Shown here piece by piece: positions 1 through 60,226 of a stretch of 60,226 bases of DNA. The position numbers and the translations under genes are program-made. Within the stretch, counting starts at the first letter, position 1. Each line of letters opens with the position of its first letter. The stretch is from a virus: the IMG/VR virus record IMGVR_UViG_3300045988_163836; one strand, given 5' to 3'. The notes beneath the pieces were generated by a model. It saw only the letters and a program-made list of their open reading frames with translations. It made no database searches and had not been told where the DNA came from.

Positions 1-314
1 AGTAGTGAATTAGTTAAACGACAGTTGGAAATTTACAATAGTTATCTAGTGAGCATTAAGAATTGCAGACTTGCCCTTGCAGAAGTGTCTACGGCAAAGT
101 GGTGGTTGTATTTTGGTCATTAAATTAATGTTGACAATTATTCATTCTACATTAGACCCGCTATGGTTTCTCATTCCGGGTCTAATCCTATTAGGAGTAG
201 CTATTTATTTACGTTTACATTTAGAAGATTAAATTTTATATAGAACTATTTTCTAAATATATTATACAAAAAAATTTTAATTATGTCAAGCCATTTTGGG
301 CAAAGGAGGATAAT

Positions 315-752
315 ATGGATAAAGATTATTTATACGAATTTTGGTCGCCAGAAGGCGATTATTAGAAAGTGCGGGCCACTCCATCTGAAGCACGAAGGCA
401 TGATATCACTGGCAGCATGTTAATGAAAGTAGCTTGCGATTGTTATCATGAGCATTATATGGAATATCGTAATGTAGCTGATGTATTAAGTAAATGTTAT
501 TATAATAGGACTCTTATTACAGATGAAGCACGCGACAAGAAAGATGAAGATTGTTTTAGACTAATTGGTTATACACCTTATGGCGAATCTAATACCTGGA
601 TTGTAGCGAATGGGTCTGATAGTATAAAACAATTTGAACATGGGATGAAAACAGAATTAACAGTAGAATGGTGGCCGGAACATCGTGATGAATACGATAA
701 CAAAGAAGATTTCTATAATGCTTGTTATTGTAAGGTGGAACCTGTAAAATGA
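315..752 (+). CDS. hypothetical protein
   Basis: RBS aaaggagga lies upstream of ATG 315. An in-frame TAG at 363 read as Gln joins this start to the 369..752 ORF. The gene ends at a TGA that overlaps the next start. Confidence 0.5.
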
Positions 753-1174
753 TGAATTATTATATTTTAAACTTCTATACACCAAAAGATGAAATGGTAA
801 AAGAAGTTTTTATAGATAAAGATACCATAACTCAATCATTTATTAATCGTATTCTATTGGATATTGCTGAAAATTTTTTTGGACATAAGTATGATAATTC
901 TGCGGCAATGGTTAATTATTTAGAGCATTGCTATTATACTAAAGAAAAAGTAAATCAAAACAGAAAAAAAGAATACTGGAATATTATCGTTGCCGACTAT
1001 CAAGGTAATACTGAAACAGAAAGTTATCTTGCTACTGAAGATTTTAATGTAGATAAAGCTATTGATCGGCTGAAACATTATTTAGCATTTATTCATAAAC
1101 CATCAGATATGAGTGAGCAAGAGTATGTTGATAAATATTGTTATTTAGTATCGGCAGAAAAAATTGAAAAATAA
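749..1174 (+). CDS. hypothetical protein
   Basis: 141-aa ORF whose start overlaps the upstream stop. It ends at TAA and is followed by an AT-rich promoter-like box and an RBS. Confidence 0.5.
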   Translation: MMNYYILNFYTPKDEMVKEVFIDKDTITQSFINRILLDIAENFFGHKYDNSAAMVNYLEHCYYTKEKVNQNRKKEYWNIIVADYQGNTETESYLATEDFNVDKAIDRLKHYLAFIHKPSDMSEQEYVDKYCYLVSAEKIEK

Positions 1175-1219
1175 AAAATAATATTATATAATATTTATAT
1201 AATAAAGGAGGAAATATTA

Positions 1220-2378
1220 TATGAGTTATTTATTTACCAGTGAGAGCGTTTTTGCCGGTCACCCTGATAAGGTTTGTGATTAGGTAAGTGATGCTATTCT
1301 GGATTATGTCCTCCAGCTTGACCCTGATGCACGAGTAGCTTGTGAATGTACTATTAGTCCAGGTCTTTTCCACATCATGGGAGAGATTACAGCTAAAACA
1401 GAACAATCTATTCCTTATCAGGAAATTGCAAGAGAGACTTTAAGATTTATTGGTTATGACAATGATGAAGCAGGATTTAACTGCGACACTTGTTCATATA
1501 TTATTAATGTAGTAAATCAATCCCCTGACATCGCTGCGGGTGTCGATAGGGATGGTGCTGGAGATCAAGGCATGATGTTTGGTTATGCAACTAACGAAAC
1601 AGAAAATTATATGCCTATTGCCCAGCAACTTGCTAACAATATCTCGGTCATTATGTTTAGTAAGTATAAAAATGATTTGCTACCTTGGGCATTACCTGAC
1701 GGCAAATGTCAGATAACTGTCCAATACGATGATGATGGCAACTTTGAAGGGGTAGATACAATTGTCGTATCGGCCCAACACAAAGACAAATATAGTATTA
1801 AGGAAATAACACCCGATATTACGAACATTTGTAATATTGCCCTTCAAGGTTATGCCATTAAGAAAGATTGTAAATTTTATATTAACCCAACAGGCAGATT
1901 CGTAATTGGTGGACCTGCGGCTGACATTGGATTAACCGGACGTAAAATCGTCGTAGATACATATGGTGGTTATGCTCCACATGGTGGGGGATGTTTTTCA
2001 GGGAAGTCGCCCTGTAAAGTAGATAGGTCTGGTGCTTATATGGCACGTTATGTAGCTAAAAATCTTGTAGCTTCTGGTGTTTGTGATAAATGTATGATTC
2101 AAGTTGCTTATATTATTGGGCAGACAGAACCTGTATCTATTAATATTAATTGTTTTGGTACAGAAAAGAAACCTATCGCTGAAATTCTTGAAGCAGTTAA
2201 TCAGACATTTGATTTTGCACCGCGTAGTATTATTCATAAATTTGATTTAAAACATACTCGCTATTTACCCTATGCTTGCTTCGGTCATTTTGGTCGTATT
2301 GAATGTAATAGTCCTTGGGAACAGCTTGATAAAGTAGAAGAATTAAAAACAATTTTTGATTTTAAAAAGGAGAACTAA
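1220..2378 (+). CDS. metK: S-adenosylmethionine synthetase (MetK) with an apparent +1 frameshift near 1258-1262
   Basis: It carries the MetK signatures GHPDK-like PDKVCD, GAGDQGMMFGYA and GGGCFSGKSPCKVDRSGAY. The in-frame TAG at 1281 sits exactly at the conserved Gln of CDQ(I/V)SDAILD. The N-terminal motif MSYLFTSESVFAG from ATG 1220 is in a frame one base off from the rest of the protein. The observed ...GCCGGTCAACCCTGATAAG... compares with the expected ...GGTCACCCTGATAAG..., which suggests one extra A. Confidence 0.8.
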
Positions 2379-2379
2379 T

Positions 2380-2466
2380 ATGGACCCCGTAATTATTCTT
2401 GTTATTGCTATTGTCGTCCTTGGTGGATTGTATTTCTATAACTATAAGAAAGGAACCAAGTATTAA
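2380..2466 (+). CDS. small hydrophobic peptide (28 aa)
   Basis: ATG follows the RBS aaaaggagaac. The product is a TM-like stretch VIILVIAIVVLGGLYFY and the ORF ends at TAA. Confidence 0.3.
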   Translation: MDPVIILVIAIVVLGGLYFYNYKKGTKY

Positions 2467-2467
2467 T

Positions 2468-2701
2468 ATGATTTATTGCCTTGTTCCAAAAGATGAACTA
2501 AAAGATTTGCTCTATGATAGTTTGCGACTTCAAGCATTAGACTGTGGTGGCGTTGACAATTGGGATTGGTATGGTGCATCTATTGGAGATTTTATTGATG
2601 CCGCCAAGGCAGACTATAATGTTTCAGAAGATGATGATGATTTCGACATTAGTGATATGGCTGATGTAGATGTTGAAGGTTACAGAACAATGGAGGAATA
2701 A
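2468..2701 (+). CDS. hypothetical acidic protein
   Basis: ATG 2468 lies just after the upstream TAA. The product has a D/E-rich C-terminus. Confidence 0.45.
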   Translation: MIYCLVPKDELKDLLYDSLRLQALDCGGVDNWDWYGASIGDFIDAAKADYNVSEDDDDFDISDMADVDVEGYRTMEE

Positions 2702-2703
2702 TT

Positions 2704-3114
2704 ATGTTATTGTATTTGTTGGCTATTGTTATCGGCGTAATTTGTTTTATCATTGCAAAATGTTTGAGTGATAATTTTAGTGATTGGGCTGCTCTTCCAT
2801 TTACTATTGGCTTTATACTTGCTCTTGTAGTATTATTTAGTACAATTGCTTTTATATGCCACAAAGCAACTGCATCTATTGACCGTGCTAATGTAGAAGC
2901 CGAACGAGATGTTATTGTTTATCAGATAGAACACCATGATAGTTTCCTTGAAACTTCAAGAGTTGGTGTAAATGAATTGTATTATACTCAAGTAAAAGAA
3001 TTCAATGAAAAAGTGCGTATTCATCAGTTCTATAGGAGTAATCCTTGGACAAGTTGGTATGAGCAGCCATTTTGGTCAGAAATTGAATTGATTGATTATA
3101 CAGAGGAGTCTTGA
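2704..3114 (+). CDS. membrane protein
   Basis: Two N-terminal hydrophobic helices. A hairpin terminator lies immediately downstream. Confidence 0.5.
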   Translation: MLLYLLAIVIGVICFIIAKCLSDNFSDWAALPFTIGFILALVVLFSTIAFICHKATASIDRANVEAERDVIVYQIEHHDSFLETSRVGVNELYYTQVKEFNEKVRIHQFYRSNPWTSWYEQPFWSEIELIDYTEES

Positions 3115-3138
3115 TAAGAGACTCCTCTTTTATTTTTA
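3104..3138 (+). terminator. rho-independent terminator
   Basis: Hairpin GAGGAGTCTTGATAAGAGACTCCTC followed by TTTTATTTTT. Confidence 0.6.
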
Positions 3139-3168
3139 TAAAAAAATATTATAAAATATATATATAAA
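3136..3168 (+). promoter_or_regulatory. phage promoter consensus copy (AT-rich upstream box plus TATAAAATATATATATAAA)
   Basis: This is one of more than 20 near-identical motifs. Other copies lie near 1176, 5790, 8686, 14693, 16400, 17860, 20645, 23650, 23855, 24018, 24493, 27308, 43945, 54567, 55548, 56848, 57538 and 58925. The consensus is TTGAAAA(A/T)TTAAAAAAATATTATATAATATATATA. Confidence 0.5.
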
Positions 3169-3171
3169 GAA

Positions 3172-3366
3172 ATGAGAGATATAAAGAATTTTAAAGGAGA
3201 CGATACTATGGACAAGATTAGAAACGAAGAAGTTGTCAATGCTTATAATAAGGTCGTTGATCTCTGTGTAAGTAATTATGAGTATATTGACAATGCTGAA
3301 GCGGAAGAAATTGACATGGCTCTTGATATTCTTTATAAGCAGCTTTTTGAGGAGGGTGACAGATAA
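3172..3366 (+). CDS. hypothetical protein
   Basis: ORF preceded by an RBS-like aaaggaga. Confidence 0.45.
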   Translation: MRDIKNFKGDDTMDKIRNEEVVNAYNKVVDLCVSNYEYIDNAEAEEIDMALDILYKQLFEEGDR

Positions 3367-4076
3367 TGGCTCTTGTTGCTAAATCTTATCAGGATTTGGA
3401 AATTGTCCGTGATACTTATATTGAAAATGGCAAGCGTTATTGTGATGTGCGGACCAAGGATGGCAAGGTCAAGAAGGTCAAGAGCTACACCCAGTCAGAG
3501 TATGACCGCTATTATCCTCCTGTAAAAATTATTAAACCTGGTAATCGTAAGCATATTCTTGGTTTTGATAATGGATATATTACCCTGTTTAAAGGTAATA
3601 CTTATGAAAATCTTGAATGGTTTGAACATTCTAATGCCCGTTTCCACACTACGTTCAAGTGGTATGTTGTTTCTACCGAAGAAGTTCCTGCCGATGTGCC
3701 GGAAGGTATTACGCCCGTGCAGCTGCCTTGGGAACTCGTAGGTAATGACGACGGCACTCTGAAAGATAATGCTGTTATTAATAAGGTAGTTGAAAATCTT
3801 ATTTATGATGAAGGCAATAGTCGTTATCAGGGTGAAGTTGGCGATAAGATTGAACGTGATGTAAAAGTAATTAAAAACATTGAAGCAGAAAATTACTATG
3901 GTGTTAATCATATTATGACGTTTATTGATGCCAATGAGAATCTGTACTGCTGGAGTACAGCCGCCAAGAATTGGGAAATTGGTAAGGAACTTACTATTAA
4001 GGGAACTATTAAGTCTCTTGGAACTTACCAGAAGCAGAAAATTACTTATTTGACGAGGTGTAGTGAAGTTGGATAA
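3366..4076 (+). CDS. hypothetical protein
   Basis: 236-aa ORF whose start overlaps the upstream stop. Confidence 0.55.
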   Translation: MALVAKSYQDLEIVRDTYIENGKRYCDVRTKDGKVKKVKSYTQSEYDRYYPPVKIIKPGNRKHILGFDNGYITLFKGNTYENLEWFEHSNARFHTTFKWYVVSTEEVPADVPEGITPVQLPWELVGNDDGTLKDNAVINKVVENLIYDEGNSRYQGEVGDKIERDVKVIKNIEAENYYGVNHIMTFIDANENLYCWSTAAKNWEIGKELTIKGTIKSLGTYQKQKITYLTRCSEVG

Positions 4077-4344
4077 TTGGATGGATATATTTGATGCATA
4101 TGCTGAAGAAGTTTATCAACATATGGTTAATGAAAAGCATTCTAATGCTCTTAAATATGGTAAGATTGCTATTGATTTACAGAGTGAAGAGAATGGGAAT
4201 TATTATCGTTTGCGTATAATCCTTTGGGATGATATGGTTTATGCAGATTGGATGCGTAATGGAATAGTTATTTTTTGTGAGCCGATTTCTGACAAGAAAA
4301 GTTATAATGAGAGGATTGAATTGAGTAATTGGAATTTGACATGA
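4063..4344 (+). CDS. hypothetical protein
   Basis: ORF with an overlapping start. Confidence 0.5.
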   Translation: MKLDNWMDIFDAYAEEVYQHMVNEKHSNALKYGKIAIDLQSEENGNYYRLRIILWDDMVYADWMRNGIVIFCEPISDKKSYNERIELSNWNLT

Positions 4345-4757
4345 GCAAGGTAATGTCTGGTCCAGGCAATCCTTTTGTATTTAATCAAATGGATTATTTA
4401 ATGGGTCGTATTAAAAAAGAAGACACATTACATAAATACCATGTTCTGCTTAAATCAGGTCAAGTTATTCTTGAAGACTATTGGTGTTGGCATGGTCATA
4501 AATGGTATAAAGCATTAATTAAATGCTTTGATGATTTTTATATTGTAATTACTACTGAAGAAGATGTAATTAGTATAGAAAAAATAGAAAATCCAACAGT
4601 AGATTCTATCTATATAGAATATATATTGGCAAGCAGACTGAGAGGAGATGAAGTTGATGGCGACTCTATATATGATGTGCGGCTTGAGTGCAAATGGAAA
4701 GACTACATTCGCGAAATCCTTCGCAAAGATGAATCACATCCGGTATGTAAACCCTGA
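4329..4757 (+). CDS. hypothetical protein
   Basis: The ORF's 3' end, about 110 nt, overlaps the next gene. The true end is uncertain. Confidence 0.4.
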   Translation: MEFDMSKVMSGPGNPFVFNQMDYLMGRIKKEDTLHKYHVLLKSGQVILEDYWCWHGHKWYKALIKCFDDFYIVITTEEDVISIEKIENPTVDSIYIEYILASRLRGDEVDGDSIYDVRLECKWKDYIREILRKDESHPVCKP

Positions 4758-5193
4758 TGAATTGTATGCTGTCTTCAATGGTGATGAATGCAACCGCTGT
4801 CATAAGTTCGAAGTTTGGCAGACATTATATCAGATTGTACATTGTGCAGAGATGGATAAGGCAGATATTATCATTGATACTAATTGTTTGACTCTTGGAC
4901 AGAGAGAAGAAATCAGAAGCCGTTTTCCTCATTTTGATAACTACCAGCTTATGGTTATTATCGCTAGTGTAGAAAATTCAAAGGAATGGAACTCCAAGAG
5001 ACATAGAGTTGTGCCGCAGCAGGAGCTTGAACGGCAGGCACGTATTGTAGATTGGCCTGATTTGACTGATCATTATAATGGTTGGAATAGTATTAGATAT
5101 TATTATAATGATGGCTCTCTGTTTACTAAATATCGTGAAATTTATGATGGCGAAGACCATGATCTGCGACAGAAGAAGGAGGATAATAAGTAA
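4648..5193 (+). CDS. P-loop NTPase or kinase-like protein
   Basis: Walker A motif GLSANGKTTFAK. Confidence 0.55.
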   Translation: MKLMATLYMMCGLSANGKTTFAKSFAKMNHIRYVNPDELYAVFNGDECNRCHKFEVWQTLYQIVHCAEMDKADIIIDTNCLTLGQREEIRSRFPHFDNYQLMVIIASVENSKEWNSKRHRVVPQQELERQARIVDWPDLTDHYNGWNSIRYYYNDGSLFTKYREIYDGEDHDLRQKKEDNK

Positions 5194-5750
5194 TGTTTTT
5201 AATTATTTTAGGTATTTTTATTGTATTTGCTATTATCTGTTTTATAGTATTTAGCTATTTTAAGAATTGGGAAGATTATCAGCGTTTTAAAAAGGAAGCC
5301 ATTGGATGGCATGATAAAACTGTTGAGCTTACCTTTGATGAAGTAATGAAATACTCTGCTATTAAGCCTGATAAATGGTGTATTAGTGATACTAGCATTT
5401 CTTATAAAATTGGTAAAAAAAATATTGTTGGTGAAAGTAAATTTTATGTGTATTTTAGTTCTTATAAGGAATACCGTAAATTTATCCAATGGTGGGAAAA
5501 TAAAAGAACTAAAGCAATGCAGGAAGCAGAACTGCTTAAGGGTCTTGAATTTTGTGACCTTATGAAAGCAGATTGTCAGACACTCAAAGAAGAAAGCCAA
5601 GAGGCAATTTGTAAGGCGGCAATTAGTAGTGCCCAGCTTATTAAGCAAACGGTTGAAAATGATGCTGAACTTAAACATATTTATAAGTGTGTAGTTAATG
5701 AGGATGGTATTGTTGAACTTGTTAAATATAATTATACTGCAACTGCATAA
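5193..5750 (+). CDS. membrane-anchored hypothetical protein
   Basis: N-terminal TM segment. The start overlaps the upstream TAA. Confidence 0.5.
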   Translation: MFLIILGIFIVFAIICFIVFSYFKNWEDYQRFKKEAIGWHDKTVELTFDEVMKYSAIKPDKWCISDTSISYKIGKKNIVGESKFYVYFSSYKEYRKFIQWWENKRTKAMQEAELLKGLEFCDLMKADCQTLKEESQEAICKAAISSAQLIKQTVENDAELKHIYKCVVNEDGIVELVKYNYTATA

Positions 5751-5844
5751 TTGACTACCCGGAAGGTTCTATTTCTTGTTTGTAAATTTGAAAAAAATAA
5801 AAAAATATTATATAATTTATATATAAAGATAAGGAGTAATTAAT

Positions 5845-6069
5845 ATGTTTGGTTTTGATGATAGTTATTTTCTGTTCATGAATGAAGCAGAGGGTACTGG
5901 AATGGTAAACACTCGTACTGGATGTATTAATACTCTGGTACGTAAGATGCAAGAAAATCCTCGATGGTATGTTGAGGAAAATTTTAATATTATGTGTGAA
6001 GAGTGCGGGATTGAGGATATCACACCTGCCGAAGAAGATATGGTATGGGAGATGTATAGTCGAGGATGA
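5845..6069 (+). CDS. hypothetical protein
   Basis: RBS aaggag lies upstream. Preceded by the promoter consensus. Confidence 0.45.
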   Translation: MFGFDDSYFLFMNEAEGTGMVNTRTGCINTLVRKMQENPRWYVEENFNIMCEECGIEDITPAEEDMVWEMYSRG

Positions 6070-7682
6070 AAGCTTATTTAAAAGACATATGGCCGATGGA
6101 CAAGAAAAGAACTTATAGTCCAGTCTATGATGCCAAAGTTTATAATAAAGAAGCCTGGGAAAAGCTACTAGATGATTTTAACAAAAATGTTAAAGCCGGA
6201 GCTTATAATAAACTGCTTTATACTGATTGGAAAGTTCTCCATTTAATGGATGGAGACTATAAGGTAGTATGGTTTGAGATTAATAATACCTGTCTTGCTC
6301 CTACTATAGTCCATATTCAGGAATTTAAGTATTTAAAAGATTCAGATAATTTTAGAATGGTAGGTACTGATAAGAAGTATAATACTTCTGAAGATGATTA
6401 TTCATTTGGTACATATTTGGCCGATATGTTGTTCTATGATTATTTTGATTGGGTAGAAGCTGATGAAAAGGTAGATGATTATAGGCTATTTGGCTTAACT
6501 AATTTAGGAGCTTATAGTTCAGAGGACGGCATCGGTTGGCGTGCTATTAATTGGGCACTTAATCCCGCGGTGGAGGGTACAACTGGTCAAGTGATTTTTA
6601 ATGATGTAAAAAAAGATATAAAGAAGCTCAATTGCGAATTTAATAAGACTACTGAGATTCTTAATAATTGTTATAATAAAATTAACGAAAATACTGAATG
6701 GCTTAATAAAGTATATGAAAATGTAGATAAAGTAAAAAATACCACATTTTCTGATACGGCAACTATTAATGTTAGCCCTATTGATCCAGCTAAATTGGAT
6801 ATTAAAGATGAAACAGCTTCTACTGCGTCTGTTAGTATAGATTGGGGATATCGTCCAACCGCTTCTACAGCTAGTTCTATTACTGGCGAAAGTGTTATAG
6901 GGAAAACTATTGAAGTTAATGGTGATTCTGGTATTACTTATAATCCATATACTACAGCTACTGTTTCAATCTGTAATAGTTTAACTAGCCGTATTGATAC
7001 AATGGAAGAAAGAATTAATAAACTTGAAACAAACAATGATGATGTGAAAGGTAAAGGAAATAATATGAAGATGTTTAATTTTGATTTTGGTCCGATTAAG
7101 GATAATGATGCTGTTCGTATGTCGCCGTATGGTCTGGCGGTTAAGAATGTTAATGGCACATATCAGGCTTATGATAAGAAGAATGGCGAGATTATGGATG
7201 TTGATATTTTCAACTTTAAGGCTGATAATATGTTCTTCAAGATGCCTGTTGGCATTGACGCCATTGAAGCTGGTGATGTGATTATTTTCAACAGACGTCC
7301 GTGTTTTGTCTTTGGTTTCTCCGAGCAGGGTGATGTAATTGCAATTGATATTGCAATGGGTGAAAAGAAGACTATTATGCCTACAAAGTCTCCTTTTGGT
7401 AATTTTAGTTTTATTACTAAAATTGTAAGCCTTTTTGATAATATGATGGCTCCTCCTTCTAAAGACAACCCTCTGGGCAATATGTGGATGTTTACTCTTC
7501 TTGATGACAATAATAAGTCCATGAAAGATATTCTTCCTATGATGCTGCTTATGAATGGTGCAAATGGTATGACCGGTTTTAATCCTATGATGCTCTATCT
7601 TATGTCGGATAAGGCTGATGGTGATAAAGATTGGCTTCTGCCGATGCTTATGATGAATAATTTTCCGGGTAAGACTAATTAA
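6066..7682 (+). CDS. large hypothetical protein with a Met-rich C-terminal repeat region
   Basis: 538 aa. It has a coiled-coil-like middle. The C-terminus repeats PMMLLMNG / NPMMLYLMSD / LLPMLMMNNFPG. Confidence 0.55.
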   Translation: MKAYLKDIWPMDKKRTYSPVYDAKVYNKEAWEKLLDDFNKNVKAGAYNKLLYTDWKVLHLMDGDYKVVWFEINNTCLAPTIVHIQEFKYLKDSDNFRMVGTDKKYNTSEDDYSFGTYLADMLFYDYFDWVEADEKVDDYRLFGLTNLGAYSSEDGIGWRAINWALNPAVEGTTGQVIFNDVKKDIKKLNCEFNKTTEILNNCYNKINENTEWLNKVYENVDKVKNTTFSDTATINVSPIDPAKLDIKDETASTASVSIDWGYRPTASTASSITGESVIGKTIEVNGDSGITYNPYTTATVSICNSLTSRIDTMEERINKLETNNDDVKGKGNNMKMFNFDFGPIKDNDAVRMSPYGLAVKNVNGTYQAYDKKNGEIMDVDIFNFKADNMFFKMPVGIDAIEAGDVIIFNRRPCFVFGFSEQGDVIAIDIAMGEKKTIMPTKSPFGNFSFITKIVSLFDNMMAPPSKDNPLGNMWMFTLLDDNNKSMKDILPMMLLMNGANGMTGFNPMMLYLMSDKADGDKDWLLPMLMMNNFPGKTN

Positions 7683-7749
7683 TTAATTTATCTCCATAGT
7701 TAAAAAGTGTAGAAGATAATTTTACTTTTTAACTATGGAGGATTTTTAT

Positions 7750-8658: not shown

Positions 8659-8680
8659 AGGCTCCTTATTTTATTTTTAT
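8647..8680 (+). terminator. rho-independent terminator
   Basis: GGAGCCTTGTTAAAGGCTCC followed by a T-rich tract. Confidence 0.6.
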
Positions 8681-8732
8681 AAAAAAATATTATAAAATAT
8701 ATATATAAATTAAAGGGAAAAGGTGAATTAAA

Positions 8733-10397: not shown

Positions 10398-10476
10398 TTT
10401 AAATTCTTGCCAAAATTGAATACTCGAAAATTTATAAAAAATTTGATATAATATATATAGAAAGGATGGGAGAGAT

Positions 10477-11391: not shown

Positions 11392-11393
11392 GT

Positions 11394-11639: not shown

Positions 11640-11652
11640 GGAGTTGATAATT

Positions 11653-12643: not shown

Positions 12644-12656
12644 GGAGGGAACTTCA

Positions 12657-14644: not shown

Positions 14645-14654
14645 ACATAGATAA

Positions 14655-50275: not shown

Positions 50276-50525
50276 TTTAGATAATATTTTAAAAGAAATT
50301 ACAAATAATATTATAAAAGAAAATAAGGGATATATGGATTTATTATTTGTTATATACAATAATATGGTTACTTTAGAAGAACCAAATCCAGAAGTCAATA
50401 AAAAAATAATTTATACCTTAGCAAATTTATTATAGAATTAGGATTTACGACTAAAAGATTTAAATATAGATTATTCAAAAGAATTAAATAAATTAACAAA
50501 TTAGCTATATTCTATAGGAGAATAA
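50268..50525 (+). CDS. small hypothetical protein (85 aa)
   Basis: ATG overlaps the upstream stop. About 4 in-frame TAGs. Possibly an accessory or second precursor. Confidence 0.35.
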
Positions 50526-50527
50526 AA

Positions 50528-51376: not shown

Positions 51377-51386
51377 AATATAAGTA

Positions 51387-52319: not shown

Positions 52320-52914
52320 TAAATATATTAAATGTGCTTGTGCCTTATATTTTTCATTAAAAAAAGTTAATAGTAAATATCCATTTTTACTATTAACTAC
52401 TAATAATGTATCAGATATTTATTTTAAAATTTTAAAAAAAAATAATATAAATTATAAAATAATAGAATAGCCAATTTATTTTTGTGGAGATTCTAATTTT
52501 TATAAAGATACCGCTAATAAATTTTTTATTTATACTTTAACTTAGTACAAAAAAATTTGTTTTATAGATGCTGATATTTTAATTGCTGAAAATATTGATA
52601 ATATTTTTGATTATCCAGATGGTAGTTTTTATGAAGTATATGATAACTAGGAATCTAAAGGACGATTAAGTGGCGGAATAGCTATAATAAAGCCAAATAA
52701 AAATTTATATAAATCAATATTATAGTTTTATATAAATTTTCAAACAGATGAAGAAATATTTAATATCTTATATCCTAAATATTATCATTTACCAAAATTT
52801 TATTATAAACATGATACTGACCATTATCCTGATAAATGGGCTTTTCATTTAACAATATTTAAAATAAAAAAATTAATTGAACATACAAAAAATTTAACTA
52901 TACTATTGAGGTAA
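52279..52914 (+). CDS. family-8 glycosyltransferase (glycogenin/LgtC-like)
   Basis: CFVTLATTDKYIKCACALYFSLKK...FIDADILI is the GT8 N-terminus with a DxD motif. There are 4 in-frame TAGs. Confidence 0.55.
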
Positions 52915-52916
52915 CT

Positions 52917-53663
52917 ATGGATTATTTTTTATATGGATTGATCGATGGTTCTTACCAGCATGGAATAAATAATAACACAAGTGATATAGATATTATTGAA
53001 ATCTATTCTTCTTTTATAAATATGGAAAAAGAATTAAAAAAAATTTCAAATTTTGATTTAAATTTAATTCCATAGGAATAGTCTAATAATTTTATGAAAA
53101 AATTTAATATTATAAATTGGAATCCTTCAAGGCGGATTTATACAGGAGAACATTTTATTTATAATTTATTTTATAATAATAACTATAGTTATTATAGATG
53201 GTTATTCCCTTATCATTATTTAAGTGATAATGAATTTACTTTAGAAATAAAAAAAATTAATGAAGATATAGTTAAAGAAAATTTACCAGTCATTTATTCT
53301 CAATTAATTAATGAAAGTAATAGATTATTTTAGACTGGATTACGAGAAAATTATTATAAATTAAAAAATTATTATAAATTAATTTATAAATCTTTTATTG
53401 ATCTAATAATAATAATTGAATATTATAAAACAAAAAGTTATAAACAAAGTTTATAGCTAGGAATGTATAAACCATATATTTTAGATATAAAAAATAATTT
53501 TAATAATTACAGTAATTTTGATTTTATAGTAAAAAGAAATGAACTTTTAAATAAAATTTCAGAAATAAAAAATTTTTATTTAAATGCTCCTACTAACACA
53601 AAATATCAAAATTAGTTAATTCAAAAAATGGAGAATACAAATTATTCAAAATTTTATATTTGA
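52917..53663 (+). CDS. nucleotidyltransferase-fold protein
   Basis: GLIDGSYQHGINNNTSDIDII matches the GS-x(n)-DxD motif. About 6 in-frame TAGs. Confidence 0.5.
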
Positions 53664-53694
53664 TAAAAAGTAAAAAATATTATATAATTTAAAT

Positions 53695-54570
53695 ATGAAA
53701 AAAATAAATTTAAATTGTCCGGGATTTTATACTGGATTTAATATATATAAAACTCTTTTAGAATTACAATAGACAGCTCCAGAATGTTTCAATTTTAATG
53801 TAGCTATAGAGAGTATATTCGATACATTCCCAAATATGATTTGGAATGGAGGAACTGTCAATCAAGGCTATCAACCTTCATTAGAAAAAATAAAAGAAAT
53901 TATTGATTTTTATTATGGAAATAATATAGAAATTGCTTTAACCTTAACAAATCCATTATTAACAAAAGAAGACTTGTATGATAGATATTGTAATAAAATC
54001 GTTTCCTTATGTGAAAATGAAAATAATTCAATTTTAGTTTCTTCCTCTATTTTAGAAGAATATATAAGAAATAAATATCCTAAATTTAAAATTAAAAGAA
54101 GTATAATAGCTTCAAATAAAAATACAGATTATTTGTCTCTTTTAAATAAATATGATAAAATTGTTTTACCTCGAAGACAAATAAAAGATTTTAAGTTTTT
54201 AGAATCAATTCCAATAGAAGTAAGAAATAGATTTGAACTTTTATGCAATGACCCTTGCCCGATTATTTGTCCATATTTATATAAACATTATAATGGATTT
54301 GCTAAAATAACTTTATATGAAGAAGTAACTTCAAAAGATATTTTAAAATGTAAAACATTAAAAAGTGATGATCCTTTAAAGAATTTTCATTATAAGAATG
54401 ATCAAATTACTTATAATGAAATATGTGAAAAATATTTACCATTATTTTATAACAGCTTTAAATTAAGCGGTCGAAATGATGTATTCACTATAATTTTTTC
54501 AATAGTTCCTTTTTTCTTTAAGCAAGAATATCAATTAGAATTAGCACATTATTTATGTTGTATAATTTGA
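53695..54570 (+). CDS. Cys-motif paralog C
   Basis: MIWNGGTVNQGY, then ...ELLCNDPCPIICPYLY. One TAG at 53767 joins the ATG 53695 start to the 53836 ORF. Confidence 0.5.
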
Positions 54571-54635
54571 AAATTTAAAAAAAATTTTATATAATATATA
54601 TAGAAATTGAGGGAAAAATAAATTCTCTCTTAAAT

Positions 54636-54708
54636 GCCGGCATAGCACAGTTGGTAGTGCAATTGATTTGTAATCAATAGGTCGGGGGTTCGAATCCGTC
54701 TGCCGGCT
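54636..54708 (+). tRNA. tRNA-Thr (UGU)
   Basis: Acceptor GCCGGCA/TGCCGGC. D-arm GCAC-AGTTGGTA-GTGC. Anticodon arm ATTGA-TTTGTAA-TCAAT. T-arm GGGGG-TTCGAAT-CCGTC with one mismatch. No CCA. Confidence 0.6.
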
Positions 54709-54787
54709 CGCTATCATGTGAAAGCCTTCTCGTGGCGATAGTGTTTTAACTAATTTCACAATTATTTATTAAAGGAGTCATTTAGAT

Positions 54788-55423
54788 ATGGCATACATTT
54801 ATTAGATAATAAATAATATTAATGGAAAAATTTATGTTGGTAAAACAGTAAAAAATAATATTTAGGAACGTTGGAAAGAACATCTTAAAGATTATAAAAA
54901 ACCTAGATGTGAAAAACGTCCTTTATATGACGCAATGAATAAATATGGTTCAGAAAATTTTTCTATTAAAGAGTTAGAGGAATGTCCATTAGAAGAACTT
55001 AATGATAAAGAAGTTTATTGGATTGAAAAATTAGGTTCTTTTAAATATGGATATAACGCTACAATTGGCGGAGATGGCAAACAATATATTGACTATGATT
55101 TAGTATGCGAAACATATAAGAATTTACAATGTATTGTAGATACTGCTAAACAATTAAATATTAGTGAAGATTCAGTTTCTAAAATTTTAAAATTATATAA
55201 AATTGATATTATTCCTAATGCTAAAATAGTTCAAAATAAGTATGGGAAAATAATTAATATGTATGATTTAAATGATAATTATTTAAGGACTTTTCCATCA
55301 ACAACTGAAGCAGCTAAATTTATGGTAGAAAATAAATTAACTAATTGTAAAATGACTACTATAAAACAACATATTTCTGAAGTATGCAAATGTAAACGAA
55401 ATACAGCTGCTAAGTTTAAATGA
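54788..55423 (+). CDS. GIY-YIG homing endonuclease (intact copy)
   Basis: MAYIYQIINNINGKIYVGKTVKNNIQERWKEH...YGYNATIGGDG. There are 3 in-frame TAGs. It is 75-80% identical to the frameshifted copy at 29290. Confidence 0.7.
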
Positions 55424-55451
55424 AAATATGCTTAATTATTATACCATTAGC

Positions 55452-55548
55452 CAAGATTGGATAGTTAATAAAACCGTTTCTAGTTAATAGATTCTAGATG
55501 GCCGGGACTCAAAACTGCTGGCAATTCTAATCTTGGCTATTTTCTTTT
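55452..55548 (+). terminator. terminator-like long hairpin
   Basis: TAGCCAAGATTGG...AATCTTGGCTA followed by TTTTCTTTTATTT. Confidence 0.45.
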
Positions 55549-55629
55549 ATTTGAAAAAATTAAAAAAATAGTATATAATATATATACAAAATAAAGAAAA
55601 AAATAAATGAGAAAAAGGTGTTAAAAGTT

Positions 55630-55983
55630 ATGGAATATTCTCTGGATAAGTACAAGTATTTTATTCCCACTAAGGCAGATGGTACGCCGTATAAGGTTGT
55701 TGCAGTTTCTACTTATGCTGGTAGGACTGTGCGTGGTGTAGCCAAGTGTGATCCGAAGGATACATTTGATACTGAAAAGGGTAAGCAGCTTGCCGCAGCA
55801 CGTTGCCAGGCGAAGGTCAGTTCTCAGCGTCTGAAGCGTGCTACTAAGAAGCTTGATGAAGCTGCTAAGGCACTTGAGAAGGCACAGAAGTATTATGATG
55901 ATATGACTGTGTATTTCAATGATAGTGCAAGAGATAAGGAAATGTATGATAGCGTAGTTGAAAGACTCGCTAAGGAAATGTAA
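55630..55983 (+). CDS. hypothetical protein on a GC-rich island
   Basis: The ORF is about 45% GC. The start could be ATG 55630 or GTG 55618. A terminator hairpin follows (AAGGGTAATTAATTACCCTT). Confidence 0.5.
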   Translation: MEYSLDKYKYFIPTKADGTPYKVVAVSTYAGRTVRGVAKCDPKDTFDTEKGKQLAAARCQAKVSSQRLKRATKKLDEAAKALEKAQKYYDDMTVYFNDSARDKEMYDSVVERLAKEM

Positions 55984-56048
55984 TAAATAAGGGTAATTAA
56001 TTACCCTTTATATCCGGGTGTAGTTCAGTTTGGTAGAACGCTTGATTT

Positions 56049-56527
56049 GGGAAAAGAGATTTTTGTCTAAAAAATATGTTAGATATTACTCAACAGAAAG
56101 GAACTGTAACAGAGTTAAGATGTATTCTTGATTTAACTAATCTTGGATATAGATGTTTAAAATCTGTTGATGAAAGTTCTAAATATGATGTAGTAGCTGA
56201 TATGGGGATGGGTAAATTTATCCGTATTCAATGTAAAACATCTTCTTGGGTTACTGATACAAAAGAACCTAATGTAGCTTTTGCAATTGCTACAAGTTGT
56301 ATTACCACTAATACAAAATCTACTACTCGTCATAAGTATTCAAAAGATGATATTGATTATTTTTATACTTGGTTTGAAGGCCAAGGATATTTAGTTTCCA
56401 TTGAAGAAGCTACTGGTGCAACTTTTAGATGGCGGTATGAATATCCTTCATCTGGTCAAAAACAGGGTATTCATATCGCTAATGATTACAAAATTGAGGA
56501 GGTCTTAAAGACAATCTAAGATTTTCC
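56049..56527 (+). other. intervening sequence in a tRNA anticodon loop (not group I), carrying a PD-(D/E)XK ORF
   Basis: Almost all of it is ORF 56076..56519. Confidence 0.5.
56076..56519 (+). CDS. PD-(D/E)XK-fold nuclease-like protein encoded in a tRNA insertion (paralog 2 of 3)
   Basis: ...SSKYDVVADMGMGKFIRIQCKTS... and ...IDYFYTWFEGQGYLVSIEEATGATFRWRYEYPSSGQKQGIHIANDYKIEEVLKTI align with 26810..27247. Confidence 0.6.
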   Translation: MLDITQQKGTVTELRCILDLTNLGYRCLKSVDESSKYDVVADMGMGKFIRIQCKTSSWVTDTKEPNVAFAIATSCITTNTKSTTRHKYSKDDIDYFYTWFEGQGYLVSIEEATGATFRWRYEYPSSGQKQGIHIANDYKIEEVLKTI

Positions 56528-56918
56528 TGGATCAAGAGGCCGTGAGTTCAAGTCTCGCCACTCGGACCATCAGGGTTCTGTTAAAGATACATAATTGAAA
56601 AGGATTGATCTCCCTAAGTAGATTTGTATTGGAATGAAAAAATGAGGTCTAGATGACACAGATAACCTCCCCTGAACCATCCCTTTTGTTAGTAGGTTGT
56701 CGGGGTTAAATAACTAACAGTAAAGACACACGCAGCAAATATTAGATAAAATCTATGTGTTATTGGTTCAAGTCCAATATTATCTCTGTTAAGATAATTC
56801 ATCCAAAGGGTAGGATAATAGTTAATTTATTTAATGTGTCTTGTAAATTTGAATTTTAAAAAAAAATATTATATAATATATAAGTAATCAATAAGAAATT
56901 ATTAATTACTTATAATTT

Positions 56919-56993
56919 ACTGGTGTCGCCAAGCGGTAAGGCACAGGACTTTGACTCCTGTATTCGTTGGTTCAAATCCAGCCACCAGTGCCA
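56919..56993 (+). tRNA. tRNA-Gln (UUG)
   Basis: Acceptor ACTGGTG/CACCAGT. D-arm GCC-AAGCGGTAAG-GC. Anticodon arm CAGGA-CTTTGAC-TCCTG. T-arm GTTGG-TTCAAAT-CCAGC. G73 and CCA. Confidence 0.75.
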
Positions 56994-57033
56994 ATATAGG
57001 TCAGTACAGTGTAATTGGTATCACCCCTGACTG

Positions 57034-57474
57034 GTTTGAAGGAGGTTCATTTTGTAGTCAAAAAGTAACAAAGATAAAGGACGTTTTGGATTAGCTATGG
57101 CTATTGCCTATTTCACTGACAAAGGCTATACAGTCTCAACTCCTTTAAATGATACTCAGTGGTATGATTTAATTATAGAACGAAATGGTAAATTTTAGAC
57201 AGTTCAATGTAAATGTACTGGAAGTTAGGATAATGTTATAATGTTAAGATCTTGCGGTGGTACTAAAGGAACTGTTTATGATAATGTTTTAAATCATTCT
57301 GAGCTTGATTTATTATTTTGTATAGATGTTCAAGGTAATATGTATGTAATTCCATTAAAAGAAATTTTAAAATCAGGAAATACAAAATAGATTACTTTAC
57401 GAACAGCTCCAACAAGCAATAATCAAGGCTTTTAGACTTATAAATTTCGAGTTCGATTCTCGTTTCAAACACCA
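57034..57474 (+). other. intervening sequence in a tRNA anticodon loop (not group I), carrying a PD-(D/E)XK ORF
   Basis: It carries the RBS GAAGGAGG and a TTG start at 57052. Confidence 0.5.
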
Positions 57475-57477
57475 TAA
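57052..57477 (+). CDS. PD-(D/E)XK-fold nuclease-like protein encoded in a tRNA insertion (paralog 3 of 3)
   Basis: TTG start. There are 5 in-frame TAGs. ...NDTQWYDLIIERNGKFQTVQCKCTGS... has the motif D...E.K. ...LDLLFCIDVQGNMYVIPLKE... aligns with the other two paralogs. Confidence 0.55.
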
Positions 57478-57584
57478 ATCAGGTGCTTAATGCGGTTGTT
57501 GGTTCAAGTCCAACCTGGCCTACCATTTAAAATAAAATTTGAAAATTTAAAAAAAATATTATATAATATATATATAATAAATGA

Positions 57585-58920: not shown

Positions 58921-59087
58921 TACTGAATAATTTGATTTTAAAAAAATTATTTAGTATAATATATTTACAAGATAAAGAGAAGTTAGGATAATTTCTCTAA
59001 GACAGTTTCAGTAAATTTTTATTAAAGATAATCATATGTTTTTTGGTTCATAAGAAGATACTTTATTAAACTGTCTTGTATATATAT

Positions 59088-59162
59088 TCCGGCTTTGGGT
59101 AACGGTTAGCTCAGCTGACTCTAAATCAGCAAGTCTCAGTTCGACTCTGAGAGCCGGTGCCA
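59088..59162 (+). tRNA. amber suppressor tRNA (anticodon CUA), Gln-type
   Basis: Acceptor TCCGGCT/AGCCGGT with a 1:72 mismatch. D-arm GGGT-AACGGTTA-GCTC. Anticodon arm GCTGA-CTCTAAA-TCAGC, so anticodon CUA. T-arm CTCAG-TTCGACT-CTGAG. Discriminator G73 and a weak 1:72 pair are GlnRS identity features. CCA is encoded. Confidence 0.7.
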
Positions 59163-59295
59163 GGCGTAAGGCTCACGCAGCAAATTTACTTTTGAAAGTT
59201 CACCTAAAATGAATTGCTATTTTTCAAAATTGAGTCTTGATTTAATTAATATAGTTTATTTGCCGGTGTGGTGGAATGGTAGACACAAGGGACTT

Positions 59296-60033
59296 TTGAC
59301 TTAGCAAACGTTAAAATGGAGTGCCTAAGAGGAAACTCTTAGAGCAGAAGTTGGCTAAAACGGTGAATGGCTAAGAGAACGCCGTGCTAAGTTTTGGAAC
59401 ACATTCTAAAAAATTGGACGACACTCATTAAAATACCTTTTTTAATTTTTAAGTAATAATGAAAGAGAGGTAATATAAATGAGAACTGATATTTTAGAAC
59501 GCAAAGAAGAAATTGAGCAATGGATTACTGAAGGTAAAACTAAAGCTCAAATGGCAAGAGAATTGGGTTGTAATCCTAAAACAATTAATCCAGTATTAAA
59601 AAAGCTTGGTCTTGAATATGCTGGAAATCAAGGTTGTAAAGGATTGTCAAAACCCAATGGACATGAATTATCTTTGTTAGAATACTTAGAAAAAAGTATT
59701 GATATACAGAGTAATAAAGTAAGAAAAAAACTTCTTGATGAAGGTTATAAAGAGTACAAATGTGAATGTTGTGGATTAACCGAATGGTTAGGAGAACCAA
59801 TTCCTTTAGAACTTCATCATAAAGATGGAAATCATTTTAATAATGAATTAGATAATTTCCAATTATTATGCCCAAATTGTCATGCAAAAACATCTTCTTA
59901 TCGTGGAAAAAATTGTTCCAAATAAATGTGTAGAGAGTATATACCAACTATCTAAGTGCAAGTCGTGCATATGATAAAGACGTATTCCAGACTACAACAC
60001 AAAAATGTGGCTATGGTGACATAGAGTAGTAAG
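59296..60033 (+). mobile_element. group I intron (738 nt) with an HNH homing-endonuclease ORF
   Basis: The 5' exon ends in U. The intron ends in G (omega G at 60033). A P7-like CAGACTA element lies near its 3' end. It contains ORF 59479..59925. Confidence 0.6.
59479..59925 (+). CDS. HNH homing endonuclease (intron-encoded)
   Basis: LELHHKDGNHFNNELDNFQLLCPNCH is the HNH motif. The N-terminal HTH-like region reads TEGKTKAQMARELGCNPKTI. Confidence 0.7.
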   Translation: MRTDILERKEEIEQWITEGKTKAQMARELGCNPKTINPVLKKLGLEYAGNQGCKGLSKPNGHELSLLEYLEKSIDIQSNKVRKKLLDEGYKEYKCECCGLTEWLGEPIPLELHHKDGNHFNNELDNFQLLCPNCHAKTSSYRGKNCSK

Positions 60034-60226
60034 AAAATCCCTCGGTGGCAACACCATGCGGGTTCGAGTCCCGCCACCGGCACCATTAAACAATAGTAGC
60101 TAACGGCAGTTGAACAGACGGGTCGGGGCTAACATAGAAAGGTTAGCAGGTAGTACGGCGGTAGGTAACAAATCCGCAAGTCGAAATGAGTCGGGAAATC
60201 CGAATGATACGGCTTAGATGTTTTCC

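What the first reader, a model, noticed from the sequence alone, without database searches (positions are those of the whole stretch)
1..60226. Genome-wide TAG-to-Gln recoding (code 15) with a matching Gln-type tRNA(CUA)
In-frame TAG codons occur inside at least 40 otherwise intact genes. In the metK-like gene the TAG at 1281 falls exactly on the invariant Gln of CDQ(I/V)SDAILD. In the HNH and GIY-YIG genes TAGs fall inside conserved motifs such as NIQERWKEH. The tail-fiber and radical-SAM genes become single long frames only when TAG is read as sense. TAA and TGA still terminate genes. A tRNA with anticodon CUA and GlnRS identity features (G73, weak 1:72 pair) sits at 59088..59162. TAG density is very uneven. 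There are none in the 554-aa and 547-aa early genes and about 13 in the 909-aa fiber gene. This matches reports of lytic-phase-biased recoding in gut phages.
Basis: partly seen in the sequence, partly recalled or inferred. Interest (0 to 1): 0.7.

Follow-up and report, generated by a model that had tools for sequence, protein, structure and literature searches.

The report
Phage reads TAG stop as glutamine
This 60-kb piece of an uncultivated ~188-kb phage uses the stop codon TAG as a glutamine codon and carries its own TAG-reading tRNA, which is a real but already well-described trick of gut phages.

Summary
All genes lie on the + strand. Depending on the gene model, 36-44 ORFs contain 123-146 in-frame TAGs. 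Reading TAG as sense raises + strand coding from 64% to 85%. Genes end only in TAA or TGA.

TAG means glutamine:
- The MetK TAG (1281-1283) falls on the invariant Gln of HPDKxxDQISDA.
- Three of seven TAGs in a radical-SAM maturase fall on columns that are Gln in 37-40 of 44 TAG-free homologs.
- At 42 TAG columns, diverged relatives carry CAA 14 times and CAG 4 times.
- A likelihood test favours Gln over the next candidate (Lys) by 45 ln units.

A canonical cloverleaf tRNA(CUA) sits at 59088-59162 and is conserved in relatives. Its "Gln-type" identity is only partly supported. G73, unpaired U1/U72, G10 and U35 fit, but pairs 2:71 and 3:70 and base 38 do not. It is no closer to tRNA-Gln than to other tRNAs.

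TAG density is eight-fold higher in 20.7-60 kb than in 1-20.7 kb, where TAG replaces CAG.

- The fibre gene has 10 TAGs, not 13.
- The HNH genes have none.
- The "554-aa" gene ends at a TAG.

This is a new member of a known kind (genetic code 15 phages). Interest is low.

The parts
1..60226 (+). Phage genome segment decoded with TAG = Gln (genetic code 15). All genes are on the + strand and stops are TAA/TGA only.
   Evidence: coding fraction 0.64 rises to 0.85; 123-146 in-frame TAGs in 36-44 ORFs; 47 TAA and 14 TGA stops.
59088..59162 (+). Suppressor tRNA with anticodon CUA. Canonical cloverleaf, U1/U72 unpaired, G73, encoded CCA, anticodon loop CUCUAAA.
   Evidence: ARAGORN; Rfam RF00005 49.2 bits; fold. 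Identical or 1-nt-different copies in relatives L096, L082 and L098.
1221..2378 (+). S-adenosylmethionine synthetase (MetK) gene with one in-frame TAG at codon 21 (1281-1283).
   Evidence: E = 3e-115 to PDB MetK. The TAG aligns with the Q of HPDKIADQISDA. The TAG is kept in relatives L088-L090.
1..20700 (+). Low-TAG block of auxiliary or presumably early genes: MetK, kinase, nucleotidyltransferase, phosphoesterase, HslV-like and M28 peptidases, and three ~550-aa paralogs.
   Evidence: 9 TAGs in 5944 codons (1.5 per 1000); CAA 71, CAG 77. Annotation.
20700..57500 (+). High-TAG block: CXXX-repeat maturase module, tRNA array with homing endonucleases, tail-fibre genes, and a radical-SAM/glycosyltransferase cluster.
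   Evidence: 114 TAGs in 9596 codons (11.9 per 1000); CAA 175, CAG 35.
20994..22334 (+). Radical SAM peptide maturase (CXXX-repeat target family) with 7 in-frame TAGs.
   Evidence: Three TAG columns are Q in 39/44, 40/44 and 37/44 TAG-free viral homologs. Syntenic relative L004 has CAA/CAG at 5 of the 7.
41199..43928 (+). Tail-fibre gene with a glycine-rich domain. 909 codons, TTG start, 10 in-frame TAGs.
   Evidence: Pfam PF12810, 1e-44. Upstream extension and TAG count. Relatives carry CAA at codons 146, 623 and 628 (numbered from the ATG at 41454).
44955..46958 (+). Radical-SAM/glycosyltransferase-2 fusion gene. The CxxxCxxC motif lies upstream of the first ATG, so a GTG start is likely. 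12 in-frame TAGs.
47418..50275 (+). Two radical-SAM/SPASM-like genes (47418-48905 with 12 TAGs; 48905-50275 with 6 TAGs).
   Evidence: All TAGs are kept in L081/L083 apart from one CAG.
29271..29939 (+). GIY-YIG homing endonuclease with 5 TAGs. Its paralog at 54788-55423 has 2 TAGs at the same two N-terminal positions.
   Evidence: Pfam PF01541. I-TevI alignment: first TAG = Q, second = E.
56919..56993 (+). Ordinary tRNA-Gln(UUG) of the phage. A1:U72, G73.
   Evidence: Only about 63% identical to the CUA tRNA.
10395..10397 (+). TAG that may still act as a terminator, closing the 554-aa product of 8733-10394.
   Evidence: It is followed by TTGCCA...TGATATAAT and an RBS for the next gene. These 79 nt are identical in four relatives whose upstream codons vary.

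Best explanation
The window belongs to an uncultivated phage of about 188 kb with 31% G+C. The phage has reassigned TAG from stop to glutamine (genetic code 15).

The phage supplies its own tRNA(CUA) at 59088-59162. Once that tRNA is made and charged with Gln, ribosomes in the infected cell read TAG as Gln, while TAA and TGA still terminate. The charging is presumably done by a host enzyme, because no aminoacyl-tRNA synthetase is encoded in the window.

TAG has largely taken over the role of CAG in the AT-rich tail-fibre, radical-SAM/glycosyltransferase and homing-endonuclease genes. It is rare in the auxiliary-gene block at 1-20.7 kb. Most of that block can therefore be translated under the host's standard code, whereas the TAG-rich genes need the suppressor.

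What is shown: in-frame TAGs, their equivalence to Gln, the tRNA, and the skewed distribution. What is inferred: Gln charging of this particular tRNA, competition with host release factor 1, and any timing function.
For: Recoding:
- + strand coding rises from 0.64 to 0.85 and median ORF length from 100 to 151 codons when TAG is sense. Making TGA sense gives almost no gain.
- There are 123-146 in-frame TAGs, and no gene needs TAG as its stop (47 TAA, 14 TGA).
- 99 TAG positions are kept as TAG in relatives of >=90% identity from independent assemblies.

Gln:
- The MetK TAG sits on the invariant Q.
- Maturase TAGs sit on columns with Q in 39/44, 40/44 and 37/44 TAG-free homologs. Two other recoded lineages (L040, L073) also place TAGs on 44/44-Q columns.
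- Syntenic relative L004 has CAA x7 and CAG x2 at 16 window TAG sites.
- Across 42 sites, Q occurs 18 times, 14 of them as CAA, which is two mutations away from TAG. The lnL for Gln exceeds the next candidate (Lys) by 45. Q recovery at TAG sites is 43%, against 55% for true Gln codons in the same alignments.
- TAG density is anticorrelated with CAG density (rho = -0.62).

tRNA; conserved in relatives.

Precedent:
- TAG-to-Gln recoding with CUA suppressor tRNAs and a late-gene bias is described for many gut phage clades (bioRxiv 10.1101/2021.08.26.457843).
- It was confirmed by metaproteomics in crAss-like phages (PMC9523058).
- Public protein sets already translate this lineage with Q at TAG, while standard-code calls split the maturase into fragments of 63 and 132 aa.
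Against: - There is no protein-level evidence for this phage.
- The tRNA lacks several E. coli GlnRS identity elements: it has C2:G71, C3:G70 and A38.
- The tRNA is not specifically similar to tRNA-Gln, and its anticodon arm matches bacterial tRNA-Lys(CUU) arms. Its charging with Gln is therefore inferred from the alignments, not from the tRNA.
- No release factor 2 or GlnRS gene lies in the window. The rest of the genome was not examined.
- MetK, which sits in the 'early-looking' block, needs TAG decoding, which blurs a clean early/late split.
- One TAG (10395) looks like a working stop.
- The host, and hence its Gln-charging pathway, is unknown.
Confidence: 0.93

Rival explanations
1. TAG is read as a sense codon, but for another amino acid. 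Lysine is the most plausible, given the tRNA-Lys(CUU)-like anticodon arm. Tryptophan, glutamate and pyrrolysine are other candidates.
For: - The exact anticodon arm AGCUGACU-NNN-AAUCAGC is found in bacteria mostly in tRNA-Lys(CUU) (75 of 120 sampled), one base away from CUA.
- The nearest phage tRNA overall is a tRNA-Trp at 68% identity.
- K is the second most common residue at TAG columns (4 of 42).
- ARAGORN labels the tRNA 'Pyl' from its anticodon alone.
Against: - lnL is -102 for Gln, -147 for Lys, -167 for Glu and -193 for Trp.
- Conserved columns are Q, not K (at most 1 of 44).
- The MetK position is an invariant Q.
- The discriminator is G73, whereas the Lys tRNAs seen here have A73.
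- The tRNA has an ordinary cloverleaf with a GG D-loop and a 5-nt variable region, unlike tRNA-Pyl. No pyl genes were seen.
Confidence: 0.03
2. TAG remains a stop. The TAG-interrupted frames are then pseudogenes, split genes, or assembly and sequencing errors.
For: Standard-code gene calls in public data do produce fragments of 63 and 132 aa.
Against: - Frames run for up to 909 codons with 10 TAGs and no TAA or TGA.
- Homology continues across TAGs in the same frame.
- 99 TAG positions are conserved across independent assemblies.
- TAG sites exchange with CAA/CAG.
- A dedicated tRNA(CUA) is present.
Confidence: 0.01
3. TAG has two meanings in this phage. It terminates when the suppressor is scarce (early in infection, or in a particular context) and is read as Gln later. 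Some TAGs, such as 10395-10397, would then be genuine terminators with conditional short extensions.
For: - The TAG at codon 555 of the 8733 gene is followed by a promoter-like TTGCCA...TGATATAAT and the RBS of the next gene. These 79 nt are invariant in four relatives while upstream codons vary.
- The published model has a suppressor tRNA competing with release factor 1.
Against: - This is a single case.
- TAGs are not enriched near gene ends. Three lie within the last 5 codons against about 2.6 expected from the counts.
- Other near-terminal TAGs lie in sequence that aligns with relatives or paralogs, for example 34302 codon 862 and 31443 codon 354.
Confidence: 0.25
4. The uneven TAG density reflects base-composition drift rather than regulation. 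Once TAG became Gln, AT pressure converted CAG to TAG fastest in the most AT-rich genes, some of them perhaps acquired horizontally.
For: - TAG density correlates negatively with GC3 (rho = -0.50) and with CAG (rho = -0.62).
- TAG-rich genes have 17-25% G+C.
- TAG-dense genes include homing endonucleases and enzyme genes, not only structural ones.
Against: - Among the two equally AT-rich Gln codons, TAG/(TAG+CAA) is still 11% (9 of 80) in the early block against 39% (114 of 289) in the late block (counts).
- The 547-aa early gene has GC3 of 0.18 and nine CAA codons, yet no TAG.
- Published surveys find avoidance of recoded stops in specific gene classes.
Confidence: 0.3

Closest known systems
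Genetic code 15 (TAG = Gln) in crAss-like gut phages, validated by metaproteomics (Peters et al. 2022, PMC9523058)
   Same: TAG inside otherwise intact genes is read as Gln. The phage encodes a tRNA(CUA). Structural genes are heavily recoded. TAA and TGA still act as stops.
   Different: - This is a different phage lineage. There is no megablast match to 50,697 deposited phage records beyond tRNAs, and the CUA tRNA has no blastn match.
- Genome size is about 188 kb.
- There is no proteomic evidence here.
Large recoded gut phage clades of Borges et al. (Jade, Sapphire and Agate at about 150-210 kb; Lak) (bioRxiv 10.1101/2021.08.26.457843)
   Same: - Genome size class.
- A suppressor tRNA lying among many other tRNAs.
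- Recoded structural modules scattered through the genome.
- Clades that mix standard-code and recoded relatives. Here, relative L004 has CAA where the window has TAG.
   Different: - Membership of a named clade was not tested, because no terminase or capsid phylogeny was possible from this window.
- The 'code-change module' (tRNA + aaRS + release factor) reported for some Jade phages is not present in these 60 kb.
E. coli amber suppressor supE (glnV44, a tRNA-Gln with CUA anticodon), and Gln mischarging of other CUA-anticodon tRNAs (textbook knowledge, not tested here)
   Same: A CUA anticodon with U35, together with G73 and a weak or absent 1:72 pair. These are the features GlnRS relies on, so insertion of Gln at UAG is plausible.
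   Different: - This tRNA is not a mutated copy of the phage's tRNA-Gln (63% identity).
- It lacks G2:C71, G3:C70 and U38.
- It is phage-encoded and serves genome-wide sense decoding rather than leaky suppression.
phAss-1 group of human gut phages using TAG recoding (PMC10607447)
   Same: Human-gut virome phages with in-frame TAG in dozens of ORFs.
   Different: That genome is 136 kb. The relationship to this window was not examined.

Membership tests
Genetic code 15 phage (TAG reassigned to Gln) | Many in-frame TAG codons inside conserved, otherwise intact genes, with coding density restored when TAG is read as sense | tested here: met
   123-146 in-frame TAGs; coding fraction 0.64 rises to 0.85; homology runs across TAGs.
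Genetic code 15 phage (TAG reassigned to Gln) | TAG positions correspond to Gln in homologs | tested here: met
   MetK invariant Q. Maturase columns with Q in 37-40 of 44. 18 of 42 sites are CAA/CAG in relatives, and the lnL for Gln is best by 45 units.
Genetic code 15 phage (TAG reassigned to Gln) | Phage-encoded suppressor tRNA with anticodon CUA | tested here: met
   59088-59162; conserved in relatives.
Genetic code 15 phage (TAG reassigned to Gln) | TAA and TGA retained as terminators | tested here: met
   47 TAA and 14 TGA stops. Making TGA sense adds almost no coding.
Genetic code 15 phage (TAG reassigned to Gln) | Recoded codons concentrated in structural/late genes and depleted in early genes | tested here: inconclusive
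   An eight-fold density difference between the blocks, and the tail fibres are recoded. Expression timing is unknown, MetK in the low-TAG block needs TAG decoding, and TAG density tracks AT-richness.
Genetic code 15 phage (TAG reassigned to Gln) | Gln actually incorporated at TAG (protein evidence) | not testable with these tools
   Needs mass spectrometry of phage proteins.
Genetic code 15 phage (TAG reassigned to Gln) | Accessory code-change genes (release factor 2, GlnRS). These are optional and are found in only some recoded phages. | tested here: not met
   None among the window's ORFs in Pfam, NCBIfam or PHROG scans. About 130 kb of the genome lies outside the window and was not examined.
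tRNA-Gln by E. coli GlnRS identity rules | G73 discriminator and a weak or unpaired 1:72 | tested here: met
   U1/U72 is flagged as non-canonical and G73 is present. The phage tRNA-Gln(UUG) has A1:U72 and G73.
tRNA-Gln by E. coli GlnRS identity rules | G2:C71 and G3:C70 acceptor pairs | tested here: not met
   The acceptor stem UCCGGCU/AGCCGGU gives C2:G71 and C3:G70. The rules may differ in the unknown host.
tRNA-Gln by E. coli GlnRS identity rules | G10, U35, A37 and U38 | tested here: inconclusive
   G10, U35 and A37 are present, but position 38 is A, not U (anticodon loop CUCUAAA).
tRNA-Gln by E. coli GlnRS identity rules | Overall sequence relatedness to tRNA-Gln | tested here: not met
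   63% identity to phage tRNA-Gln(UUG), against 68% to a tRNA-Trp and 66% to a tRNA-Glu. The anticodon arm is typical of bacterial tRNA-Lys(CUU).
tRNA-Pyl (the ARAGORN label) | Atypical architecture (small D-loop without GG, 3-nt variable loop, 6-bp anticodon stem) together with pylS/pylBCD genes | tested here: not met
   A standard cloverleaf aligned end to end to RF00005, with a GG D-loop, a 5-bp anticodon stem and a 5-nt variable region. No pyl genes were seen. TAG columns are Q.

The most novel reading that the evidence does not exclude
The suppressor did not arise from a tRNA-Gln. It would be a recruited non-Gln scaffold with a Lys(CUU)- or Trp-like body that gained G73 and an open 1:72 pair, and that the host charges with Gln. 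In this lineage TAG would be bifunctional: a working terminator for some early genes (for example 10395) before the tRNA accumulates, and Gln afterwards. Relatives such as L004 would show the reassignment still spreading from CAA/CAG to TAG.
Probability: 0.2. Interest if true: 0.45.

Novelty: new member of a known kind. Interest (0 to 1): 0.25.

Why it matters
In practice, any annotation of this phage family with the standard code splits about 40 genes in this window alone, including tail fibres and radical-SAM enzymes. Code 15 must therefore be used.

Biologically, the window adds one more large gut-phage lineage to the known set of TAG-to-Gln recoders. It does not change the picture.

Three details are mildly useful:
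- The clean replacement of CAG by TAG.
- A close relative (L004) that still has CAA at the same sites.
- A suppressor tRNA whose body is not Gln-like.

These could help trace how such reassignments arise.

Tried and rejected
- Megablast of 50 kb of the window against 50,697 phage records found only tRNA matches, so no described close relative is available.
- Blastn of the CUA tRNA against the same set found nothing.
- The homolog search with the tail-fibre protein returned only proteins of the same phage family, already translated with Q at TAG. They are not independent evidence for Gln and were used only for genome size and family breadth.
- For the same reason, the Q's in the closest maturase hits (P0001-P0009) were discounted. 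The test was repeated on homolog genes that contain no TAG at the DNA level.
- The both-strand ORF-coverage measure also rises when TAA is made sense (0.85), because TAA is the commonest triplet in AT-rich DNA. It was replaced by a + strand gene-chain measure.
- Enrichment of TAG near gene ends, as relics of old stops, was considered and not found.
- Pyrrolysine was rejected on tRNA architecture and on the alignments.
- A tRNA-like element at 28883-28953 with a possible UUA anticodon was considered as a second suppressor. It has a 5-nt anticodon loop, and TAA is the main terminator, so it is unlikely to act as one.


Full report
**What is in the window**

The sequence has 31% G+C and all convincing ORFs lie on the + strand. 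Stop-to-stop ORFs of >=100 codons cover 43.5 kb under the standard code. They cover 67.7 kb if TAG is sense and 55.0 kb if TGA is sense, and the longest ORF grows from 596 to 910 codons.

A non-overlapping + strand gene chain gives these figures (ATG/GTG/TTG starts, >=45 codons, RNA genes masked):

| Measure | Code 15 | Standard code |
|---|---|---|
| ORFs | 77 | 91 |
| Coding fraction | 0.85 | 0.64 |
| Median ORF length (codons) | 151 | 100 |

Under code 15, 44 of the 77 ORFs contain TAG, with 146 TAGs in total. A stricter set of 61 ATG-start ORFs of >=70 aa has 36 ORFs with TAG and 123 TAGs in 15,540 codons. Every one of these ORFs ends in TAA (47) or TGA (14).

**Gene content**

- MetK, a kinase, a nucleotidyltransferase, a phosphoesterase, and HslV-like and M28 peptidases lie in 1-20 kb.
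- A CXXX-repeat radical-SAM maturase and its Cys-rich substrate lie at 21-23 kb.
- A tRNA array with HNH, GIY-YIG and PD-(D/E)XK endonucleases lies at 24-31 kb.
- Tail-fibre genes lie at 31-44 kb.
- A very AT-rich radical-SAM/glycosyltransferase cluster lies at 45-54 kb.

**Which amino acid TAG encodes**

The MetK gene (1221-2378) matches solved MetK structures at E = 3e-115. Its single TAG (1281-1283) aligns with the Q of HPDKIADQISDA.

The maturase (20994-22334) has seven TAGs. I collected 80 viral loci encoding homologs. Of these, 74 genes (44 distinct sequences) contain no TAG at all, so they are independent of any translation table. In them, three of the window's TAG columns are Q in 39/44, 40/44 and 37/44 sequences, and the other four columns are variable. 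Two unrelated recoded lineages (L040, L073) also put their TAGs on columns that are Q in 44/44 sequences.

The GIY-YIG TAGs align with Q and E of I-TevI.

For a formal test I aligned window genes to one relative each at 35-90% identity (loci L001-L004 and L081-L087). I recorded what the relative has at each window TAG when the relative's own codon is not TAG:

- There were 42 such sites. The relatives carry CAA 14 times, CAG 4 times and AAA 4 times; the rest are scattered.
- Using substitution frequencies measured in the same alignments, the log-likelihood is -102 for Gln. The next candidates are Lys (-147), Ser (-154) and His (-158).
- Q recovery at TAG sites is 43%, close to the 55% seen for true Gln codons.
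- Most matches are CAA, which is two mutations from TAG, so mutational proximity does not explain the result.

In relatives of >=90% identity, 99 TAG positions are kept as TAG, and 9 of 14 changes involve CAA/CAG. Within the window, TAG and CAG are complementary. TAG-free genes use CAG freely (for example 13 CAG in 8733-10451), while TAG-rich genes have almost none (rho = -0.62, p = 1e-6).

**The tRNA**

ARAGORN and Rfam agree on a 75-nt tRNA at 59088-59162 with loop CUCUAAA (anticodon CUA), an encoded CCA, G73 and a U1/U72 mismatch. It is identical in L096 and differs by one D-loop base in L082/L098.

ARAGORN's 'Pyl' label only reflects the anticodon, because the architecture is an ordinary cloverleaf.

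- G73, an open 1:72, G10, U35 and A37 fit the E. coli GlnRS rules.
- C2:G71, C3:G70 and A38 do not fit.
- The tRNA is 63% identical to the phage's tRNA-Gln(UUG), 68% to a tRNA-Trp and 66% to a tRNA-Glu.
- In 120 sampled bacterial hits, the same anticodon arm with any anticodon is mostly in tRNA-Lys(CUU) (75), then Thr(UGU) (19), and never in Gln.

From textbook knowledge, CUA-anticodon tRNAs of several origins are charged by GlnRS in E. coli, so Gln charging is plausible. Here, however, it is inferred from the protein alignments and not from the tRNA. No synthetase or release-factor gene is present in the window.

**Distribution of TAG**

| Block | TAG | Codons | TAG per 1000 | CAA | CAG |
|---|---|---|---|---|---|
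| 1-20.7 kb | 9 | 5944 | 1.5 | 71 | 77 |
| 20.7-60 kb | 114 | 9596 | 11.9 | 175 | 35 |

The difference is significant (Fisher p = 8e-14).

The bias fits the published 'late genes are recoded' pattern, but it is not clean:

- MetK in the low-TAG block cannot be made without TAG decoding.
- TAG-dense genes include endonucleases and enzyme genes.
- TAG density falls with GC3 (rho = -0.50).
- Even so, TAG/(TAG+CAA) is 11% in the early block against 39% in the late block, so composition alone does not explain the skew.

One TAG (10395-10397, codon 555 of the 8733 gene) is followed by a promoter-like TTGCCA...TGATATAAT and the next gene's RBS. That stretch is invariant in four relatives whose upstream codons vary.

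- The fibre ORF is 41199-43928 (TTG start, 909 codons) with 10 TAGs, not about 13.
- The HNH genes have no TAG.
- The low-TAG block is not TAG-free.

**Context and novelty**

The phage belongs to a widespread family with genomes of 186-197 kb seen in many ENA, Logan and IMG/VR assemblies. It has no close relative among 50,697 deposited phage records. The best protein hits there are to Enterococcus and Bacillus phages at about 37% identity.

Public protein sets already translate this lineage with Q at TAG. TAG-to-Gln recoding with CUA suppressors is documented for Lak, crAss-like and several other gut clades of similar size, and has been proven by proteomics in crAss-like phages. The finding is therefore correct, but it is one more member of a known kind.

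Noticed in passing
window 57604-58197: A full-length ROOL RNA (Rfam RF03087, 323 bits). It sits between tRNA-Gln(UUG) and the suppressor tRNA, with a strong sigma-70-like promoter match just upstream (57539-57567).
   Followed up: partly
window 60099-60211: A complete RAGATH-33 RNA (RF03102, 139 bits) at the end of the window, downstream of an HNH gene.
   Followed up: no
window 20994-22956: A phage-borne peptide-modification pair. It consists of a radical SAM 'CXXX-repeat target' maturase followed by a 216-aa Cys-rich CXXX-repeat protein (TIGR04114 repeat, weak hit). Homologs occur in at least 80 viral contigs of very different G+C content.
   Followed up: partly
window 24079-24223: A tRNA (46.6 bits) with a 73-76 nt insertion in the anticodon loop (CUUA|...|stem). 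ARAGORN does not call it. It looks like an intron-containing tRNA, and such tRNAs are reported in recoded jumbo phages (PMC13037316).
   Followed up: partly
window 28883-28953: A tRNA-like gene (48.5 bits) that ARAGORN missed. It has a 5-nt anticodon loop, UUUAA. If the closing A:U pair opens, the anticodon would be UUA (ochre-reading). TAA is the main stop codon here, so it is probably not an active suppressor.
   Followed up: partly
window 30502-30587 (also L001-L003, L083): An 86-88 nt tRNA with a long variable arm, G73 and anticodon CCA (Trp). It lies 3 nt after tRNA-Ser(GCU), and its best Rfam model is tRNA-Sec, below threshold at 39 bits. A Ser-like body with a Trp anticodon, conserved in relatives, is unexplained.
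   Followed up: partly
window 25052-25122: A tRNA called Phe with the unusual anticodon AAA (38 bits), conserved in relatives L001-L004.
   Followed up: no
window 10395-10476: The TAG ending the 554-aa ORF is followed by a promoter-like TTGCCA/TGATATAAT and an RBS. The 79 nt after the TAG are invariant in four relatives, so this TAG may still be a functional stop.
   Followed up: partly
window 8733-10451, 14749-16392, 18883-20310: Three paralogous proteins of about 475-570 aa with a shared core (HPLDY..MSDN..WESCMNW) and Cys-rich zinc-ribbon-like C-termini. They have no Pfam or PHROG match.
   Followed up: no
window 41199, 44955, 37449, about 50528: Several long genes appear to start at TTG or GTG upstream of their first ATG. 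The fibre's CBM-like N-terminus and the CxxxCxxC motif of the rSAM-GT fusion lie in these extensions. Public gene calls for the fibre (824 aa) seem to miss 85 codons.
   Followed up: partly
window 45000-54600: An extremely AT-rich cluster (17-25% G+C) next to the tail-fibre genes. It contains three radical-SAM/SPASM-like genes, GT2 and GT8-like glycosyltransferases, a nucleotidyltransferase-like gene and three paralogs of unknown function (50.5-51.4, 51.4-52.3 and 53.7-54.6 kb).
   Followed up: no
L004 (IMGVR_UViG_3300045988_169451) versus window 10.9-24.5 kb: A syntenic relative at about 60% aa identity has only 4 aligned TAGs where the window has 16. It carries CAA at most of the window's TAG sites, which suggests that TAG use has expanded or contracted recently within the family.
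   Followed up: partly
L093, L095, L097, L101-L103, L106: Unrelated viral contigs carry different tRNA(CUA) genes that share exactly the same 18-nt anticodon arm as the window's suppressor but have different acceptor stems and discriminators.
   Followed up: partly
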